In this document: positions 1,420 through 54,702 of the stretch, one piece after another | How the letters are laid out: each line of letters begins with the position of its first letter | Numbering within the stretch: the stretch's first letter is position 1 | Sequence record: MW314854.1 | Direction: 5' to 3' (one strand) | DNA from: Mycobacterium phage phiGD24-3 | Length of the DNA: 54,877 nt | Notes under the pieces: model-generated | What the model was told of the DNA's origin: nothing | Database searches by the model: none | The model's input: the letters and a program-made list of their open reading frames with translations, nothing else | Program-made: the position numbers and the translations under genes

Positions 1420-1507
1420 TCCACCGGGGGAGCGTCAGTCTCGGCCTCCTCTCGCCGCGAGCCCCGCTACCGGCTCCGCTCCCCCGGAACAACTTTCAAG
1501 GAGATCC

Positions 1508-7427: not shown

Positions 7428-7499
7428 TGGGACCTAGCTTAGTTGGTAGAGCGCCCGCCTGAAAAGCGGGAGGCCCTGGTTCGAGTCCAGGGGTCGCAG
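7428..7499 (+). tRNA. tRNA-like, anticodon GAA (Phe); G3·G70 mismatch in acceptor stem
   Basis: manual cloverleaf: D-arm GCTT/GAGC, anticodon loop CTGAAAA, T-arm CCTGG-TTCGAGT-CCAGG. Confidence 0.5.
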
Positions 7500-7654
7500 C
7501 AGGAGATGCAACCCTTACCGGGGAATGCTGCATCATCGCGTGGGTGCCGGTAACACCGCGACGCGACGGAATGCTGGACCTGCATACCCGGCCTCACAGG
7601 TGACGGGGTGTAGCTATCCATCGCCTCTCGGTTGGGTCCGTTAAGCCCGCCTCT

Positions 7655-7739
7655 GGAAGGTATGCCCTCGGCTGGGGCAACCGGTCTTGAAAACCGGCAC
7701 ACAGTAACCATTCTGGGGGTTCGACACCTCTACCTTCCG
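7655..7739 (+). tRNA. class II tRNA-like, anticodon UGA (Ser) with 17-nt variable arm; A at position 8
   Basis: acceptor GGAAGGT/ACCTTCC perfect; anticodon stem CCGGT/ACCGG, loop CTTGAAA; T-loop TTCGACA. Confidence 0.45.
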
Positions 7740-7888
7740 CTCGTGGGATCTCCAGTCACCCTGACATTGAGATCATCTGTCCCAGCACCAAACGACTGAC
7801 GAAGCCCTGTGATGGGTAGAAACACCCTCCAGGTGTCTCGTGGAGTCCGCACCGCTGGGGAATAACTGCGGACCTAGGGGTGACAACT

Positions 7889-7961
7889 GTCGACGTAGCT
7901 CAATTGGTAGAGCAGCGGTCTCCAAAACCGCAAGATGCAGGTTCGAGTCCTGTCGGGTCAG
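7889..7961 (+). tRNA. tRNA-Trp(CCA)-like with non-pairing acceptor stem (possible pseudo-tRNA)
   Basis: D-, anticodon- (loop CTCCAAA) and T-arms perfect, but 5' GTCGACG does not pair with 3' CGGGTCA. Confidence 0.4.
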
Positions 7962-8058
7962 CATGGATCAAGCAGGTTCTATGTCTGTGGCCGTCCCGAT
8001 GGTCTGTGGCCCTCGGGGACGCAGGGGTCCAAACCCTCGTCACTTGCTTGATCACCAA

Positions 8059-8134
8059 TGGAACATAGCTCAGCTGGTAGAGCACCCGTCTGAAAAGCGG
8101 GAAGTCCCTGGTTCGACCCCAGGTGTTCCAGCCA
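8059..8134 (+). tRNA. tRNA, anticodon GAA (Phe), encoded CCA
   Basis: perfect cloverleaf: TGGAACA/TGTTCCA acceptor, loop CTGAAAA, T-arm CCTGG-TTCGACC-CCAGG, GCCA 3' end. Confidence 0.8.
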
Positions 8135-46854: not shown

Positions 46855-47634
46855 CTAAGCCTGGCTGTATTGGCATGAATACGAAACATCGCAGAACCGG
46901 CACTTCGACGGCTCCGGGTCTGGCGGGAAGTTTCCCGCGTTGATGTTGTCCTGTAGTTCTACGAACTTGTCCCGCACCGTCTCTCGGGTCCAGTCGGTGA
47001 GATCGTATGGCTTGGTGGGCTTTCCAGTCTTACCCATCCAGTAGTCCCCTGTCGGCGCATACGCGCCGTGGGTCACTTCCATCGCCACCTTGTAGGCTCC
47101 GAGTTGGAAGTCATCACCAGGCTTGTTACCCGTCTTGTTGTCCCGGACGTAGATCTCATCACCGCAGAGGTTTGACATGATCAAGTCGATGAACCCACGG
47201 ATCTCGATACCGTCTAGGTCGATGTCGAACCCGAGCTCAATACCGGGCGTGCCGTCCGGCGCGATCCACACGACCTCGTCCTGGTGCTTCCCGTACCAGT
47301 CCAACATCCGGCCACACTGCTGTAGTCCGAGGTCATATCGGCGGTTGATATCGGCTTCGCCGTTATACGGTCCCGACCAGAACCACCACTCCAAGTTCGG
47401 TGTTACGTCACAGTATGTATTGACGTGGTTGTCGTACGACTCGGTGTAGACCTGTTGCATCTCTTCCAGGGTCATCGTCCGACCGGATCGCTCCCACGCC
47501 TCCCCCGCTTCGTGTACCGCAGACCCCTGCGGTAGCCACGCTGCCGGTCGCTGCCACGCCTTCTCAACCCGAGATAGGTACCACGCCATAGGACACCGCT
47601 CGTACTGTTTGTACTGGGAGACACTGAGTTTCAC
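46855..47634 (-). CDS. Cas4-family / RecB-like exonuclease
   Basis: PD-(D/E)xK-like core and C-terminal Cys cluster 'CRFCDVSYSC'. Confidence 0.75.
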   Translation of the reverse strand: MKLSVSQYKQYERCPMAWYLSRVEKAWQRPAAWLPQGSAVHEAGEAWERSGRTMTLEEMQQVYTESYDNHVNTYCDVTPNLEWWFWSGPYNGEADINRRYDLGLQQCGRMLDWYGKHQDEVVWIAPDGTPGIELGFDIDLDGIEIRGFIDLIMSNLCGDEIYVRDNKTGNKPGDDFQLGAYKVAMEVTHGAYAPTGDYWMGKTGKPTKPYDLTDWTRETVRDKFVELQDNINAGNFPPDPEPSKCRFCDVSYSCQYSQA

Positions 47635-50556: not shown

Positions 50557-50780
50557 TCGAATATCCTTTCCAACGTCGCGTATCCTGCGAATCCCATTGT
50601 CGGACAGACGAACCACCACGTGGTTTTGTTCTCGTCGTGGTGTTTGATGTCCATCCGATACGAGTTGTCAGCCGCGTAAGCGGCTGCCATACCTACACCC
50701 TGGTCCCAGTTGGACGGGTATTCGGTGGTGTCGTGGCCGGTGATGACGTTCGATACCGTCAGCCGGTAGAACGTGGTCAC
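50553..50780 (-). CDS. hypothetical protein
   Basis: ATGA coupling. Confidence 0.5.
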   Translation of the reverse strand: MTTFYRLTVSNVITGHDTTEYPSNWDQGVGMAAAYAADNSYRMDIKHHDENKTTWWFVCPTMGFAGYATLERIFE

Positions 50781-51052
50781 AACCGAGCCTCGTAGTACAC
50801 GTCCTCAGGACGTACACCACAACGATCACACGATCCACCATTCCGTTGCCCGTATGCGTATTCGTCCTTGACAAGATCACGGTGGTGTCCACAGAAGGCC
50901 ACTACATGGTTTTCGCAGGGGTATACGAAGTGCACCCGCATAACCCACTCCGCCTCCGACGCACAAGGACCCCCTTCCTCGGCCCATTCGCAGACACGTG
51001 CGGGCATGTCCCCCACGATGCTCTCAACATCGACTACCGACATCGTTGTCAT
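50777..51052 (-). CDS. Cys/His-rich (zinc-binding?) protein
   Basis: RBS TAAGGAG. Confidence 0.55.
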   Translation of the reverse strand: MTTMSVVDVESIVGDMPARVCEWAEEGGPCASEAEWVMRVHFVYPCENHVVAFCGHHRDLVKDEYAYGQRNGGSCDRCGVRPEDVYYEARL

Positions 51053-51085
51053 GTCGCTCCTTATGTTGTTGTCATACCTTTGATT

Positions 51086-51172
51086 TGGTGCCCCCGGCGC
51101 GAATCGAACGCGCCACACACAGCGACTCCGGGAGTTCATACGCCTCCGGGGGAGCGTGTAACCGTTGGGGGC
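51086..51172 (-). ncRNA. tRNA-like element: perfect T-arm (GCGCG-TTCGATT-CGCGC), GC acceptor helix, encoded CCA; non-canonical 5' half
   Basis: minus strand reads ...GGCGCGTTCGATTCGCGCCGGGGGCACCA; 5' GCCCCCA pairs with 3' CGGGGGC. Confidence 0.4.
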
Positions 51173-51295
51173 GGTCTGGTTTCGACATGAGCGATAGCTC
51201 ATGCCTTTTATCGTGGGTGGTTAGAGTTGTGGCTCAAACCAAATCCAAAGCCAGCCGTCATCACCGTCGTCGTCCCGCTCCCTCATAGTCCTAGT

Positions 51296-51430
51296 TCACG
51301 CTCCTGTCAGCTGGTCTACGTAGCAGCCGGAAGGGCAACGCCCGCAGCACATGTTGTAAGCCCAGTCAGCATCTACGGCGCGGAGTCGGGCTTTCTGTTC
51401 TTCGGATAGGGGTTCAATGCGGTAACTCAT
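51296..51430 (-). CDS. small Cys-rich protein (44 aa)
   Basis: ATGA coupling. Confidence 0.35.
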   Translation of the reverse strand: MSYRIEPLSEEQKARLRAVDADWAYNMCCGRCPSGCYVDQLTGA

Positions 51431-51639
51431 CGCCACCACCTCGCAGGCTTCGCCCACATGATCGATAAGTACGGATGTCCCGGCTGGTTATCGTGGGGCA
51501 GTCGGATTGCGACTCCGATGACTTGTCGCGGGTACCGGTTCAGGACAACAAGCCGGGGGCGTTCGGCTGCATGGCATTTCACAGCCCGGAACTGGATTGG
51601 CCAACCAAACGGCGGCACGAATCGTCTTTGGTCGCTCAT
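51427..51639 (-). CDS. hypothetical protein
   Basis: ORF. Confidence 0.45.
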   Translation of the reverse strand: MSDQRRFVPPFGWPIQFRAVKCHAAERPRLVVLNRYPRQVIGVAIRLPHDNQPGHPYLSIMWAKPARWWR

Positions 51640-51887
51640 CTTCCACCTGCCGTGAATGCTGCTATAGCCTCCCGAACCTCAATCACGTGCACCTGACCAT
51701 CGTTTGTCCGTGGCACGATGATTTCTCCAAACCGGTGGAGTGCGTTAGCCCCTCCTTGTATCAGGCTCCTGTAGCCAGAACGTGAATAGTGCTGACCACA
51801 ATGCGAATACGTGTCGTAGACGTCCTTCACCCATAAATCGAGGTCTCTTCGGTTTTCAACCTTGGGTACGTAACGAATCACGGTCAA
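51636..51887 (-). CDS. hypothetical protein
   Basis: TTG start after AGAAAGG. Confidence 0.45.
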   Translation of the reverse strand: MTVIRYVPKVENRRDLDLWVKDVYDTYSHCGQHYSRSGYRSLIQGGANALHRFGEIIVPRTNDGQVHVIEVREAIAAFTAGGR

Positions 51888-52631: not shown

Positions 52632-52952
52632 ATGCCCAGAACGAGACCGCCTACTGTTCGGCCACGTGACCGCCGCGCTGCGATACCGTCGCCGCAAATC
52701 GATCAGGGACTCGCTCGACGATTCGGAGCTGACACCGACCGTCGACCTACGGATTAAAAGTCCGTAGCTTCAGCCTGCGACGCAAAATGTCAGAGTATGC
52801 GCTGGTGAGCGGCGTAGCATACGAGCCGCGGGCATTTCACCTGAACCGGGCCCCAATATATAGGAGTCTCTCGGGGTGCCCACAGCAGAGGAATGGCGGT
52901 CATTGGCCGCTACCGGCATCGTCGAACTCTTGGAGACTGAGGGGGCGGCCAC

Positions 52953-53138: not shown

Positions 53139-53152
53139 GGTCGTATGTCAAG
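53139..53152 (-). promoter_or_regulatory. stoperator site GGTCGTATGTCAAG
   Basis: exact 14-mer. Confidence 0.75.
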
Positions 53153-53746: not shown

Positions 53747-54174
53747 CTATCTAGTCCTTATCGGTAGTAGCTCAAATCTTCTAGTGCCACGTTTGGAGTC
53801 GAACCAAACCCCTACGGTCATATCGAGAGGGCGAACCTGCCGTGGCCGACCACCAGGCACACGCTGTATCTCAAGCGCAAGCCAAATGGCCTTAAAGTAT
53901 GTTCACGTCCGTATGTTTTCCTCGGCCCGTTTCCGTGGGTTAGACCGGTCACTGAAGGCTGACTAAACGCCACTCCCTCGCAGTCCGGTAGGTCTTGGCG
54001 ATGCCCGTCATCGCTCGCTACCGGAGATATCTTCTACGTACGCTATGTGTTATGACTTGGGGGGTATCACCAGGCTCGCTGGTTGACCATGCTCCGTGTC
54101 ACTTGTTATTCAGTTGTAGGCGCTTGAGGCATAGCCTCTGCGCTTTGCGTCGAGAACTATGTTCTCTAGCGATC

Positions 54175-54204
54175 AAACTATCAGATTGTGGGCCGTATGT
54201 CAAG
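54175..54204 (-). promoter_or_regulatory. candidate promoter: -35 TTGACA inside operator GGCCGTATGTCAAG (54191-54204), 17 bp, -10 TAGTTT
   Basis: read on the minus strand. Confidence 0.45.
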
Positions 54205-54290: not shown

Positions 54291-54320
54291 ACTCTAACTC
54301 ATTGCCGGTCGTATGTCAAG
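54291..54320 (-). promoter_or_regulatory. candidate early promoter (Pleft-like): -35 TTGACA inside operator GGTCGTATGTCAAG (54307-54320), 17 bp, -10 TAGAGT
   Basis: read on the minus strand. Confidence 0.5.
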
Positions 54321-54673: not shown

Positions 54674-54702
54674 ACTCTACTACGCACGGGCCGTATGTCA
54701 AG
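54674..54702 (-). promoter_or_regulatory. candidate promoter: -35 TTGACA inside operator GGCCGTATGTCAAG (54689-54702), 16 bp, -10 TAGAGT; +1 = A of ATG at 54667
   Basis: read on the minus strand. Confidence 0.5.

What the first reader, a model, noticed from the sequence alone, without database searches (positions are those of the whole stretch)
51053..51295. Orphan tRNA-like CCA-ending element plus hairpin in a 240-bp gap of the early arm
The minus strand carries a perfect T-arm (GCGCG-TTCGATT-CGCGC) and a 6-bp GC acceptor helix (GCCCCC/GGGGGC). It ends in ACCA, 25 nt upstream of a gene start. The 5' half cannot be folded into a canonical D/anticodon arm (candidate loop CGTATGA). It could be a degenerate tRNA, a tRNA-derived regulatory RNA, or a remnant of a tRNA-targeting integration site. 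A 7-bp hairpin (CATGAGC-tatc-GCTCATG) lies just upstream.
Basis: seen in the sequence. Interest (0 to 1): 0.6.

Follow-up and report, generated by a model that had tools for sequence, protein, structure and literature searches.

The report
tRNA-Arg-derived tRNA mimic in phage operon
The gap holds a real 87-base element that descends from an arginine tRNA gene and keeps only the half of a tRNA that the cell's tRNA-trimming enzymes recognise, so it most likely serves as a cutting or end-forming signal inside the phage's early messenger RNA rather than as a working tRNA.

Summary
On the minus strand, 51172..51086 carries a 6-bp acceptor helix, a 6-bp T stem with a canonical TTCGATT loop, and ACCA. 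A 7-bp hairpin lies 13 nt upstream. The next gene starts 33 nt downstream, not 25.

ARAGORN and Rfam call no tRNA here or in any relative. The window is a Cluster MabJ (Cluster-A-like) Mycobacterium abscessus prophage. About a dozen relatives carry one copy each at the same spot.

The acceptor, an AAYGGUU linker and the T arm are conserved, with compensatory changes. The middle is replaced by at least five unrelated hairpins or domains. One type keeps relics of a tRNA-Arg(CCU) D arm and anticodon arm. In three genomes an HNH endonuclease cassette sits exactly in the T loop.

It is not this phage's attP: MabJ uses a serine integrase at sites inside protein genes.

Best reading (inferred, about 0.5): a tRNA "top-half" mimic handled by RNase P and the 3' tRNA-maturation enzymes, which punctuates the early transcript.

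In passing: a second mini tRNA-like module (53846..53784) is conserved in Bxb1, Peaches and Gordonia phage Remus, with an L5 counterpart found by eye and folding. That L5 element ends at the mapped left edge of L5's abundant Pleft non-coding RNA peak.

The parts
51086..51172 (-). TLE1, the tRNA-Arg-derived tRNA-like element (87 nt, type A). Acceptor 5' strand 51172-51167; linker AACGGTT 51166-51160; variable central hairpin 51159-51115; T stem 51114-51109 and 51101-51096; T loop TTCGATT 51108-51102; acceptor 3' strand 51095-51090; ACCA 51089-51086.
   Evidence: Sequence. Descriptor scan against simulated sequences. Folds. Pair counts. Own covariance model R1 gives 71.8 bits with a single hit in the window.
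51186..51203 (-). 7-bp hairpin CATGAGC-tatc-GCTCATG, 13 nt upstream of TLE1. It is an optional module: replaced by a two-hairpin module in L003, L014 and prophiGD43A-4, and absent in L012, L013 and L004.
51218..51240 (-). Conserved upstream block GGTTTGAGCCACAACTCTAACCA. In relatives it is part of an 11-codon remnant ORF (ATGAGCCCAACGAAAAGGTTTGAGCCACAACCCTAA). It marks the 5' mosaic boundary.
51053..51085 (-). Conserved A-rich leader after the CCA, with Shine-Dalgarno AAGGAG at 51062-51057. The same leader precedes at least three unrelated downstream genes in relatives.
50777..51052 (-). Downstream gene: 91 aa, Cys-rich, no PHROG family.
51296..51457 (-). Upstream gene: 53 aa, no PHROG family.
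53784..53846 (-). TLE2, a second and different mini tRNA-like cloverleaf (63 nt) in the same early arm. It lies about 320-360 nt downstream of a TTGACATACG promoter and 38 nt upstream of a gene. It is context for TLE1, not part of it.
52714..52771 (-). Relic of the central part of a tRNA-Lys(UUU) gene: a 7-bp anticodon stem with loop CUUUUAA, and a T arm with a 12-nt insertion. Context only.

Best explanation
TLE1 is a non-decoding tRNA mimic that evolved from a phage-borne tRNA-Arg(CCU) gene. Only the 'top half' of the tRNA has been kept: the 12-bp acceptor/T-arm stack, the T loop, a GG-containing linker that can stand in for the D loop, discriminator A and CCA. The D and anticodon half has been swapped for arbitrary hairpins.

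The element has no detectable promoter of its own. It lies on the sense strand, between two genes of the leftward early operon, so it is presumably transcribed as part of the polycistronic early RNA.

The retained half is the part of a tRNA that host tRNA-maturation enzymes recognise. RNase P would cut immediately 5' of G51172. RNase E and 3' exonucleases, with repair by the CCA-adding enzyme, would define a 3' end at A51086.

The expected result is punctuation of the early transcript. The upstream RNA gets a defined, structure-protected 3' end. The downstream cistron gets a new 5' end 33 nt before its start codon. A stable ~87-nt tRNA-like RNA may also be released.

Shown here: the structure, its tRNA-Arg ancestry, conservation of the top half with compensatory changes, single copy, fixed position, and position at a mosaic boundary. 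Inferred: transcription, cleavage by RNase P and the 3' enzymes, and any effect on gene expression.
For: (1) Architecture. All eight sequence variants, folded independently, give the same acceptor helix and T arm with a 5' linker that is mostly unpaired. Variants A, C, D, F and M have a single central arm (Y shape). The long type B has a multi-branched central domain.

(2) Selection on the top half. On alignment A1, 98.3% of cells pair, against 36-51% when partners are slid by 1-3 columns. Five pairs change on both sides. The covariation score is 0.359 against 0.116 in shuffles (0 of 500 reach it). Between types A and D, all four substitutions in the 3' 33 nt fall into two interacting pairs: 53:61 G-C to A-U, and T-loop 54:58 U:A to C:G. 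The 54:58 pair is not symmetric about the hairpin centre, so a DNA palindrome does not explain it.

(3) The ends are conserved while the middle is non-homologous in at least five types. This includes window versus L007, whose repressors are 99% identical.

(4) Relaxed constraint after disruption. In the three genomes with an HNH cassette in the T loop, the T-stem 5' strand carries two G-to-A changes that break pairs. In two of them the linker GG has become GA.

(5) The HNH cassette carries its own 60-nt mini version with the same plan (6-bp acceptor, AAUGGUU, hairpin, 6-bp T stem, NCCA), about 26 nt upstream of the HNH start codon. So 'tRNA mimic, short leader, gene' recurs.

(6) No reading frame is conserved through the element, and no sigma-70-like promoter is found in 50700-51700.

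(7) Precedent in the same phage group. TLE2 (53846..53784) shows 100% pairing, with 10 of 19 pairs changed on both sides. It is found in Remus (80.9 bits), Bxb1 (66.7 bits) and Peaches (44 bits). A 94-nt tRNA-like element I identified in L5 by eye and folding (record 51,226..51,133; model R2 gives only 14 bits there) ends where the abundant, stable, processed Pleft non-coding RNA peak ends. [quoted passage not shown]

(8) Established knowledge: bacterial RNase P needs only the acceptor/T-arm module plus RCCA. It also processes tRNA-like non-tRNA substrates, including phage RNAs and operon mRNAs (reviews PMC4919922 and PMC11143913).
Against: There is no transcript or cleavage data for any MabJ phage.

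The element is dispensable. It is split by an HNH cassette in prophiBWHA-1, which still excises spontaneously (attP PCR signal +++ in PMC9934374).

Type F (prophiGD43A-4 and prophiT46-3) has lost the CCA (ACTT) and has an A.C mismatch in the T stem. Type C has A1.C72.

The family is small: about a dozen contigs from one phage cluster, with nothing in the metagenome scans. The events are therefore few and not independent.

The compensatory changes in the acceptor helix come only from the mini element M, whose homology to TLE1 is uncertain.

The fold z-score of the window copy alone is modest (-1.88).

The L5 analogy concerns a different element (TLE2 family). TLE1 scores only 14.9 bits with the TLE2 model.
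Confidence: 0.5

Rival explanations
1. Neutral relic. TLE1 is a decaying tRNA-Arg pseudogene with no present function. The conserved ends reflect recent common descent, and repeated recombination has used them as short homology patches.
For: Clear tRNA-Arg ancestry. The D and anticodon arms are lost. The element is split by HNH in three genomes. CCA is lost and a mismatch is present in type F. Another obvious tRNA relic (tRNA-Lys, 52771..52714) lies in the same arm and is present in only some relatives. The family is confined to one small cluster.
Against: Substitutions in the retained half occur in interacting pairs. The top half stays intact across at least five unrelated middles, while the flanks and middle are unalignable. 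Pair-breaking changes accumulate only in the copies whose T loop was destroyed. The tRNA-Lys relic shows what real decay looks like, with the acceptor gone, and TLE1 does not look like that.
Confidence: 0.25
2. Trans-acting tRNA mimic. The released RNA works as a decoy or inhibitor for a host or prophage factor that recognises the tRNA acceptor/T-arm/CCA end (a tRNA-targeting toxin or defence nuclease, RNase P, or the CCA-adding enzyme). Alternatively it works as a C4-like antisense RNA whose variable middle sets target specificity.
For: The variable bottom half with a constant top half fits recognition through the top half only. In L5, the Pleft non-coding region that ends in a tRNA-like module is toxic to M. 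smegmatis when expressed, and its left part could not be deleted (PMC5712189). The P1/P7 C4 antisense RNA is an RNase P-processed phage regulator cut from a leader (cited in PMC4919922).
Against: No type-specific complementary target was found. The only 12-mer antisense match of the type A middle is to a left-arm GC hairpin that is identical in genomes carrying types A, B, C and E. The same TLE type precedes different genes. TLE type is not linked to repressor type. Rfam C4 and other families give no match. No aminoacylation identity set is evident: there is no G3:U70 and no anticodon.
Confidence: 0.15
3. DNA-level site. The conserved sequence is a recombination or homing target (an attB mimic for another element's integrase, the recognition site of the HNH endonuclease, or a single-strand initiation signal), not an RNA.
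For: It sits exactly at a mosaic junction, with different genes on either side. An HNH cassette is inserted precisely between the two T-stem strands in three genomes. tRNA-Arg 3' ends are common att sites, and truncated copies were seen.
Against: The long-range acceptor complementarity is kept across spacings of 60 to 162 nt. The 54:58 T-loop co-variation is not palindromic. G.U pairs fall on the sense strand, for example in type B and in the related element TLE2. The phage's own integrase is a serine integrase acting at attB sites inside genes (PMC9934374, PMC8092301). The related HNH genes examined in other phages showed no link to tRNA-like sequence.
Confidence: 0.1

Closest known systems
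tRNA-Arg(CCU/UCU) genes of Actinomycetota (the ancestor)
   Same: 5' GCCCCC(G). The 3' 24-25 nt (GCGCG)TTCGANTCGCGCCGGGGGCA(CCA) are identical. Discriminator A. Type B keeps D-arm and CCU anticodon-arm relics.
   Different: No D arm or 7-nt anticodon loop in the window copy. 6+6 bp instead of 7+5 bp. Not recognised by ARAGORN or the Rfam tRNA model. True tRNA-Arg genes score only 20-30 bits with the TLE1 model, against 57-80 bits for family members.
RNase P / RNase Z-processed tRNA-like punctuation elements (plant mitochondrial t-elements, MALAT1 mascRNA, tRNA punctuation of mitochondrial transcripts)
   Same: An acceptor/T-arm mimic embedded in a longer transcript next to coding sequence, with the anticodon half degenerate. 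The proposed role is to define RNA ends (PMC4919922).
   Different: Those are eukaryotic or organellar. Processing of TLE1 is untested. TLE1 carries an encoded CCA and lies in a phage operon.
tRNA-like domain of tmRNA
   Same: The 5' and 3' ends form an acceptor helix plus T arm. A GG-containing linker replaces the D arm. The anticodon arm is replaced by other RNA.
   Different: No G3:U70, no tag reading frame, no pseudoknots. ARAGORN finds no tmRNA. The only Rfam tmRNA match is 7.6 bits on the opposite strand.
Abundant stable Pleft non-coding RNA of Cluster A mycobacteriophages (L5, D29, StarStuff; Dedrick et al. 2017, PMC5712189)
   Same: Same phage architecture and the same early leftward transcription unit. 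I find that the L5 RNA peak ends at a 94-nt tRNA-like element (51,226..51,133). The window carries the homologous family as TLE2.
   Different: TLE1 is a separate element 2.6 kb further downstream. It is of tRNA-Arg origin, is restricted to MabJ, and is not matched by the TLE2 model (14.9 bits).
C4 antisense RNA of phages P1/P7
   Same: A small phage RNA cut by RNase P out of the leader of the operon it precedes.
   Different: No Rfam match. No complementary target was found downstream. No link to immunity type.

Membership tests
Canonical decoding tRNA (Rfam RF00005; ARAGORN) | Cloverleaf with a D arm and a 5-bp anticodon stem with a 7-nt loop (U33, anticodon) | tested here: not met
   ARAGORN finds nothing at the site in the window or in 8 relatives. 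Rfam tRNA gives no match at E<=10. The folds give a single central hairpin with a 9-nt loop.
Canonical decoding tRNA (Rfam RF00005; ARAGORN) | 12-bp acceptor/T-arm stack, T loop TTCRANN, discriminator plus CCA | tested here: met
tRNA 3' fragment at a phage attachment site | Only the 3' part of the tRNA is present, and it adjoins the integrase or a prophage end | tested here: not met
   The 5' acceptor strand, and in type B the D and anticodon relics, are present. The element is internal to the early arm. MabJ uses a serine integrase at attB-7 or attB-21, inside ORFs.
tRNA 3' fragment at a phage attachment site | Sequence identity with a tRNA gene of the host | not testable with these tools
The M. 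abscessus tRNA-Arg was not retrieved.
tmRNA | G3:U70 alanine identity pair, tag-peptide reading frame, pseudoknots | tested here: not met
   The acceptor is GCCCCC/GGGGGC. ARAGORN finds no tmRNA. Rfam gives no significant match.
RNase P-processed tRNA-like element (t-element / mascRNA type) | Acceptor/T-arm mimic with T loop, embedded in a longer transcript | tested here: inconclusive
   The structural part is met. Embedding is inferred from the sense-strand intergenic position and the absence of a promoter match. There are no RNA data.
RNase P-processed tRNA-like element (t-element / mascRNA type) | Cleavage by RNase P at position +1 and 3' maturation | not testable with these tools
   Needs RNA-end mapping or an in vitro assay.
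Cluster A Pleft-RNA tRNA-like module (TLE2 family, own model R2) | Match to the covariance model: 6-bp acceptor, GCAGGUUCGC, a 6-bp stem with loop AYAYSAC, a 5-bp T stem, 3' AC | tested here: not met
   TLE1 scores 14.9 bits (E = 0.08). Family members score 92.3, 80.9, 66.7 and 44.0 bits. Conversely, R1 finds nothing in L5, Bxb1, Peaches or Remus.
C4 antisense RNA (P1/P7) | Rfam model match, and loops complementary to a target in the downstream mRNA | tested here: not met
   No Rfam match. No type-specific target.

The most novel reading that the evidence does not exclude
Cluster-A-type actinophages, about 700 sequenced genomes including L5, D29, Bxb1 and the M. abscessus MabJ prophages, may routinely build tRNA-mimic modules into their early transcripts. 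These modules would hijack or titrate the host tRNA-maturation machinery (RNase P, 3' trimming, CCA addition). TLE1 would be a recently recruited second module, derived from a tRNA-Arg gene. The Pleft module (TLE2 and its L5 counterpart) would be the structural core of the abundant, stable, toxic non-coding RNA whose left portion could not be deleted from L5 and whose function has been unknown since 2017.
Probability: 0.15. Interest if true: 0.85.

Novelty: new variant of a known kind. Interest (0 to 1): 0.58.

Why it matters
tRNA-like processing signals are well known in organelles, plant viruses and mammalian long non-coding RNAs. I found no description of them as punctuation marks inside phage operons, and none for mycobacteriophages in the library searched.

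If TLE1 is processed as proposed, it shows how a phage tRNA gene can be stripped down to a pure handle for host RNA-processing enzymes. It also explains a conserved block at a mosaic boundary in clinically relevant M. abscessus prophages.

The side finding may matter more. The abundant Pleft RNA of L5 and D29, which is toxic to the host and whose left portion could not be deleted, appears to end in a conserved tRNA-like cloverleaf. That gives a concrete, testable handle on a phage RNA of unknown function.

In practice, several annotated small genes overlap these RNA elements and deserve re-examination: prophiGD43A-4 gene 48, prophiBWHA-1 gene 54 and Bxb1 gp79.

Tried and rejected
- **Real tRNA or tmRNA.** Rejected by ARAGORN and Rfam at permissive thresholds. 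The only hit over the element was a chance 23.9-bit Plastid-ycf2 match on the opposite strand.
- **Protein-coding N-terminal extension.** The ORF 50777..51202 runs through the element. Rejected because no frame is conserved across types and there are stops in types C and D.
- **The phage's own attP.** Rejected from the literature and the genome layout.
- **Group I intron carrying the HNH ORF in the T loop.** No Rfam intron match on L001. The ORF stop codon abuts the 3' T-stem strand, leaving no room for a 3' intron core.
- **HNH gene with a general link to tRNA genes.** Homologues are ordinary free-standing HNH genes in unrelated contexts. The mini-TLE plus HNH cassette occurs only in this site.
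- **Antisense regulator.** The only 12-nt complement of the type A middle is a left-arm GC hairpin (1424-1488) that does not vary with TLE type.
- **TLE type as an immunity determinant.** The window and L007 share a 99%-identical repressor but carry types A and B.
- **Repeated start-associated motif.** The leader and the upstream block are single-copy in the window.
- **Stoperator at the site.** The 13 CGTATGTCAAG sites lie elsewhere.
- **More family members.** Two metagenome scans and one genome scan with family-specific patterns found nothing. Two of the hits from the 5' 17-mer scan of viral contigs (L140, L141) were chance matches.
- **D29.** It could not be fetched under two accessions.
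Full report
**1. What is in the sequence**

Read on the minus strand, window 51172..51086 is GCCCCC AACGGTT ACACGCTCCCCCGGAGGCGTATGAACTCCCGGAGTCGCTGTGTGT GGCGCG TTCGATT CGCGCC GGGGGC ACCA. It consists of:
- a 6-bp acceptor helix;
- a 7-nt linker containing GG;
- a 45-nt middle;
- a 6-bp T stem with a textbook T loop;
- the 3' acceptor strand, discriminator A and CCA.

The two helices add up to 12 bp, as in a tRNA (7+5).

The next gene starts at ATG 51052, 33 nt after the CCA rather than 25. Its Shine-Dalgarno AAGGAG is at 51062-51057.

The combination of T stem, TTCRANN loop, adjacent perfect acceptor helix and NCCA occurs twice in the window: once as a true tRNA and once here. It occurs in none of 200 first-order Markov simulated sequences built from the window.

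ARAGORN and the Rfam tRNA model do not call the element, even at E<=10 on a 451-nt slice. The unconstrained fold is Y-shaped, with z = -1.88.

**2. Where the window comes from**

Megablast finds only four relatives in the phage collection, all Mycobacterium abscessus prophages. These are prophiBWHA-1, prophiT49-3, prophiT46-3 and prophiGD43A-4, which belong to Cluster MabJ (PMC9934374; PMC8092301).

MabJ prophages are organised like Cluster A mycobacteriophages such as L5 and Bxb1:
- structural genes run rightward, and a long leftward early/replication arm is annotated in prophiBWHA-1;
- the window carries 13 stoperator-like CGTATGTCAAG sites;
- several TTGACATACG...TAGAGT-type promoters cluster near the right end.

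MabJ uses a serine integrase at attB sites inside protein-coding genes. The element lies 3.7 kb from the right end, on the sense strand of the early arm, between two small genes of unknown function. It is therefore not this phage's attP.

**3. The family**

Pattern scans of IMG/VR, plus the four GenBank prophages, give about a dozen contigs. Each carries a single copy at the homologous position. The variants fall into these types:

| Type | Where | Features |
|---|---|---|
| A | window, L004, L005 | 87 nt |
| B | prophiT49-3, L007 | 145-162 nt, multi-branched middle |
| C | L003 | Different ~50-nt hairpin; A1.C72 |
| D | L012-L014 | Perfect 7-bp acceptor; T arm GGCGCA-CTCGGTT-TGCGCC |
| F | prophiGD43A-4 (prophiT46-3 by a matching blast hit; its sequence was not read) | Different hairpin; ends ACTT, no CCA; one A.C in the T stem; annotated as CDS 'gene 48' |
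| E | prophiBWHA-1, L011/L139, L015 | ~620-nt HNH endonuclease cassette replaces exactly the 7 T-loop nucleotides; the HNH stop codon abuts the 3' T-stem strand |

Sources.

The cassette in type E begins with a 60-nt mini element, M: CCCCTG AATGGTT [hairpin] GGCGCA ATCGTTC TGCGCC CAGGGG TCCA. It follows the same plan and lies about 26 nt upstream of the HNH start codon.

All eight variants fold, unconstrained, into the same acceptor helix and T arm, joined by a 5' linker that is mostly unpaired. Variants A, C, D, F and M have a single central arm. Type B has a multi-branched central domain.

None is called by ARAGORN or matches any Rfam family at E<=1. No reading frame is conserved through the element.

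**4. Ancestry**

The 3' 24-25 nt are identical to the 3' ends of tRNA-Arg(CCU/UCU) genes, and of att-site fragments of such genes, in many Actinomycetota and other bacteria.

Type B still carries AGCTC-TGG-GAGCT, a D-arm relic. It also carries CCGCA-CTCCTAACTC-TGCGG, which compares with CCGCT-CTCCTAA-AGCGG in real tRNA-Arg(CCU). The element therefore descends from a complete tRNA-Arg(CCU) gene, not from an att-type 3' fragment.

**5. Is the retained half under selection?**

On an alignment of the nine variants (A1) I scored 13 pairs: 6 acceptor, 6 T stem, and the T-loop 54:58 pair. The results:
- 98.3% of cells pair, against 36-51% when partners are slid by 1-3 columns;
- five pairs change on both sides;
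- the covariation score is 0.359 against 0.116 in shuffles (0 of 500 reach it).

Between types A and D, every one of the four substitutions in the 3' 33 nt belongs to an interacting pair. The loop-closing pair changes from G-C to A-U. The 54:58 pair changes from U:A to C:G, and it is A:U in M. The 54:58 pair is not symmetric about the hairpin centre, so a DNA palindrome does not account for it.

In contrast, the three HNH-split copies share two pair-breaking G-to-A changes in the orphaned 5' T-stem strand. Two of them have also lost the linker GG. That is the pattern expected if constraint was relaxed once the T loop was destroyed.

Caveats:
- the sequences are few and related;
- the acceptor double changes come only from M, whose homology is uncertain;
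- types C and F each carry one mismatch;
- type F lacks CCA.

**6. A mosaic boundary**

The conserved block, from the element through the leader ACCAAA..ARAGRTWTGACAAC.ACATAAGGAG, precedes at least three unrelated genes. In L007 a further 55-nt structured insert sits inside the leader.

Upstream, the block follows an 11-codon remnant ORF. Different hairpin modules are present or absent there. In L004 a 1.3-kb deletion ends right at the element.

The window and L007 have 99%-identical repressors but carry types A and B. The middle is therefore exchanged between close relatives, and TLE type is not an immunity determinant.

**7. A second tRNA-like module, and a link to published RNA data**

This was noticed while testing model R1.

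TLE2 lies at 53846..53784 on the same strand. Its sequence is GCCACG GCAGGTTCGC C CTCTCG ATATGAC CG(T)AGGG G TTTGG TTCGACT CCAAA CGTGGC AC, a 63-nt mini cloverleaf. It lies about 320-360 nt downstream of a promoter whose -35 is at 54203. That stretch holds no minus-strand ORF longer than 51 codons. TLE2 lies 38 nt upstream of a gene.

TLE2 is present in all MabJ relatives that cover the region, with different flanks on both sides. It lies in unannotated sequence in three of the four GenBank records.

A weak BLAST hit led to Gordonia phage Remus. A covariance model (R2) then found TLE2 in:
- Remus, 80.9 bits;
- Bxb1, 66.7 bits, E = 3e-16, at record 47,101..47,039, inside annotated gp79;
- Peaches, 44 bits, in the ORF-free right end.

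In these copies the acceptor, anticodon-like and T stems have entirely different but complementary sequences. Pairing is 100%, and 10 of 19 pairs change on both sides.

In L5 the model is weak (14 bits). By eye and by folding, however, there is a 94-nt five-armed tRNA-like element at record 51,226..51,133: GGGTAG ... TCGGG TTCGATT CCCGA CTACCC AC.

Dedrick et al. 2017 (PMC5712189) reported the following for L5, D29 and StarStuff:
- they make extremely abundant, stable, processed non-coding RNAs from Pleft (TSS 51,672);
- about 90% of transcripts end at 51,140-51,190;
- the left part of the region could not be deleted;
- the region is toxic to M. smegmatis.

A 2025 D29 preprint also reports a sharp peak immediately upstream of gene 89. 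Neither paper mentions a tRNA-like structure; the term does not occur in either text. The published RNA peak therefore appears to end at a conserved tRNA-like module.

TLE1 is not a member of that family. It scores 14.9 bits with R2, and R1 finds nothing in L5, Bxb1, Peaches or Remus. Still, the finding shows that tRNA-like modules in Cluster-A-type early transcripts are expressed and coincide with RNA ends.

A third item is a relic of the centre of a tRNA-Lys(UUU) gene at 52771..52714. It is present only in the window, L004 and L007.

**8. Mechanism**

What TLE1 retains is the set of features that bacterial RNase P uses (acceptor/T-arm stack, T loop, RCCA), together with the features used by the 3' tRNA-maturation and CCA-repair enzymes. 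This is established knowledge; non-tRNA and phage substrates are reviewed in PMC4919922 and PMC11143913.

No sigma-70-like promoter is detected in 50700-51700. The most economical reading is therefore that the element is transcribed within the early polycistronic RNA and cut out, or cut at, by these host enzymes. Three consequences would follow:
- The upstream RNA would gain a defined end. In most variants, though not all, a hairpin lies just upstream and could protect that end after an RNase P cut.
- The downstream cistron would get a fresh 5' end 33 nt before its start codon.
- A tRNA-sized stable RNA might accumulate.

The recurrence of 'mimic, short leader, gene' in the HNH cassette fits a role tied to expression of the gene that follows.

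All of this is inference; I put it at about 0.5. The main rivals are:
- a neutral tRNA relic (0.25);
- a trans-acting decoy or regulator (0.15, partly overlapping the best explanation);
- a purely DNA-level recombination or homing site (0.10).

The element is dispensable. prophiBWHA-1, with a split copy, still excises spontaneously. Any function is therefore accessory.

**9. Comparison with known systems, and verdict**

TLE1 works most like the RNase P/Z-processed tRNA-like punctuation elements: plant mitochondrial t-elements, mascRNA, and tRNA genes embedded in operons. Structurally it resembles the tRNA-like domain of tmRNA. It fails the tests for membership in tRNA, tmRNA, C4 RNA and att-site fragments (see the membership table).

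I rate it a new variant of a known kind. It is a real, tRNA-Arg-derived top-half mimic confined to MabJ prophages, and its function is untested. Interest is moderate for the element alone. It is raised by the side finding that Cluster A phages in general carry a conserved tRNA-like module, seen in L5 at the end of the Pleft non-coding RNA peak.

Noticed in passing
window 53784-53846 (minus); also L142 696-758 (Remus), L144 1540-1602 (Bxb1 47,039-47,101), L145 3994-4053 (Peaches), L143 3834-3927 (L5 51,133-51,226): A second, unrelated mini tRNA-like cloverleaf (TLE2) is conserved across Cluster-A-type phages of M. abscessus, M. smegmatis and Gordonia. Its acceptor, anticodon-like and T stems change in a fully compensatory way. 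In L5 the counterpart, found by eye and folding, ends at the mapped left edge of the abundant, stable Pleft non-coding RNA peak (PMC5712189). That paper does not describe it as tRNA-like.
   Followed up: partly
window 52714-52771 (minus); L004 9073-9093, L007 5886-5906: Relic of the central part of a tRNA-Lys(UUU) gene: a 7-bp anticodon stem with loop CUUUUAA, and a T arm with a 12-nt insertion. It sits in a ~480-nt ORF-poor stretch of the early arm, is not called by ARAGORN or Rfam, and is present in only some relatives.
   Followed up: partly
L001 3895-3954 (minus), L011 1082-1141, L015 11500-11559: The HNH endonuclease cassette that splits the element in three genomes starts with its own 60-nt mini tRNA-like element (6-bp acceptor, AATGGTT, hairpin, 6-bp T stem, TCCA), about 26 nt before the HNH start codon. 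This cassette was found nowhere else in IMG/VR.
   Followed up: partly
L006 513-746 (prophiGD43A-4 gene 48); L016 24110-24385 (prophiBWHA-1 gene 54); L144 1530-1703 (Bxb1 gp79): Annotated small 'hypothetical protein' genes overlap the tRNA-like elements (TLE1 or TLE2). At least gene 48 is probably a mis-annotation, because no frame is conserved through TLE1.
   Followed up: partly
window 1424-1488 (plus): An 11-bp GC inverted repeat, CCGGGGGAGCG ... CGCTCCCCCGG, lies between the small-terminase-like ORF and the next gene. It is essentially invariant (stem arms identical) in six MabJ genomes. It shares a 12-mer with the type A middle of TLE1, which is probably coincidence or a recombination patch.
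   Followed up: partly
window 53142-53152, 54194-54204, 54310-54320, 54692-54702 and 9 other sites: There are 13 copies of the stoperator-like CGTATGTCAAG motif. At least four of them overlap TTGACATACG -35 boxes of early promoters near the right end. This matches the published MabJ consensus cTTgACATACGaCC.
   Followed up: yes
window 7428-8134 (plus): The left-arm tRNA cluster looks irregular. ARAGORN and Rfam disagree: 7655-7740 is called only by ARAGORN, and 7894-7955 only by Rfam, as a 5'/3'-truncated match. The 7428-7500 'tRNA-Phe' has a G.G mismatch in its acceptor stem. Only the 8059-8134 gene encodes CCA.
   Followed up: no
L013 660-696 and homologous positions in >20 M. abscessus prophages of other clusters: The motif GTCTGGCTGGACGGTGACCGAATG (gene end overlapping the next ATG) recurs at gene junctions in many unrelated M. 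abscessus prophages. In MabJ the gene that should follow is cut down to 11 codons just before TLE1.
   Followed up: no
L007 6952-7006: In this relative a 55-nt insert with two small hairpins lies inside the conserved leader, between TLE1 and the Shine-Dalgarno sequence. The whole intergenic region behaves as a hotspot for small structured insertions.
   Followed up: no
L146 2286-2369 (L5 63-64 intergenic): [quoted passage not shown] GCCTGGGG) followed by a stoperator. It is not tRNA-like.
   Followed up: yes
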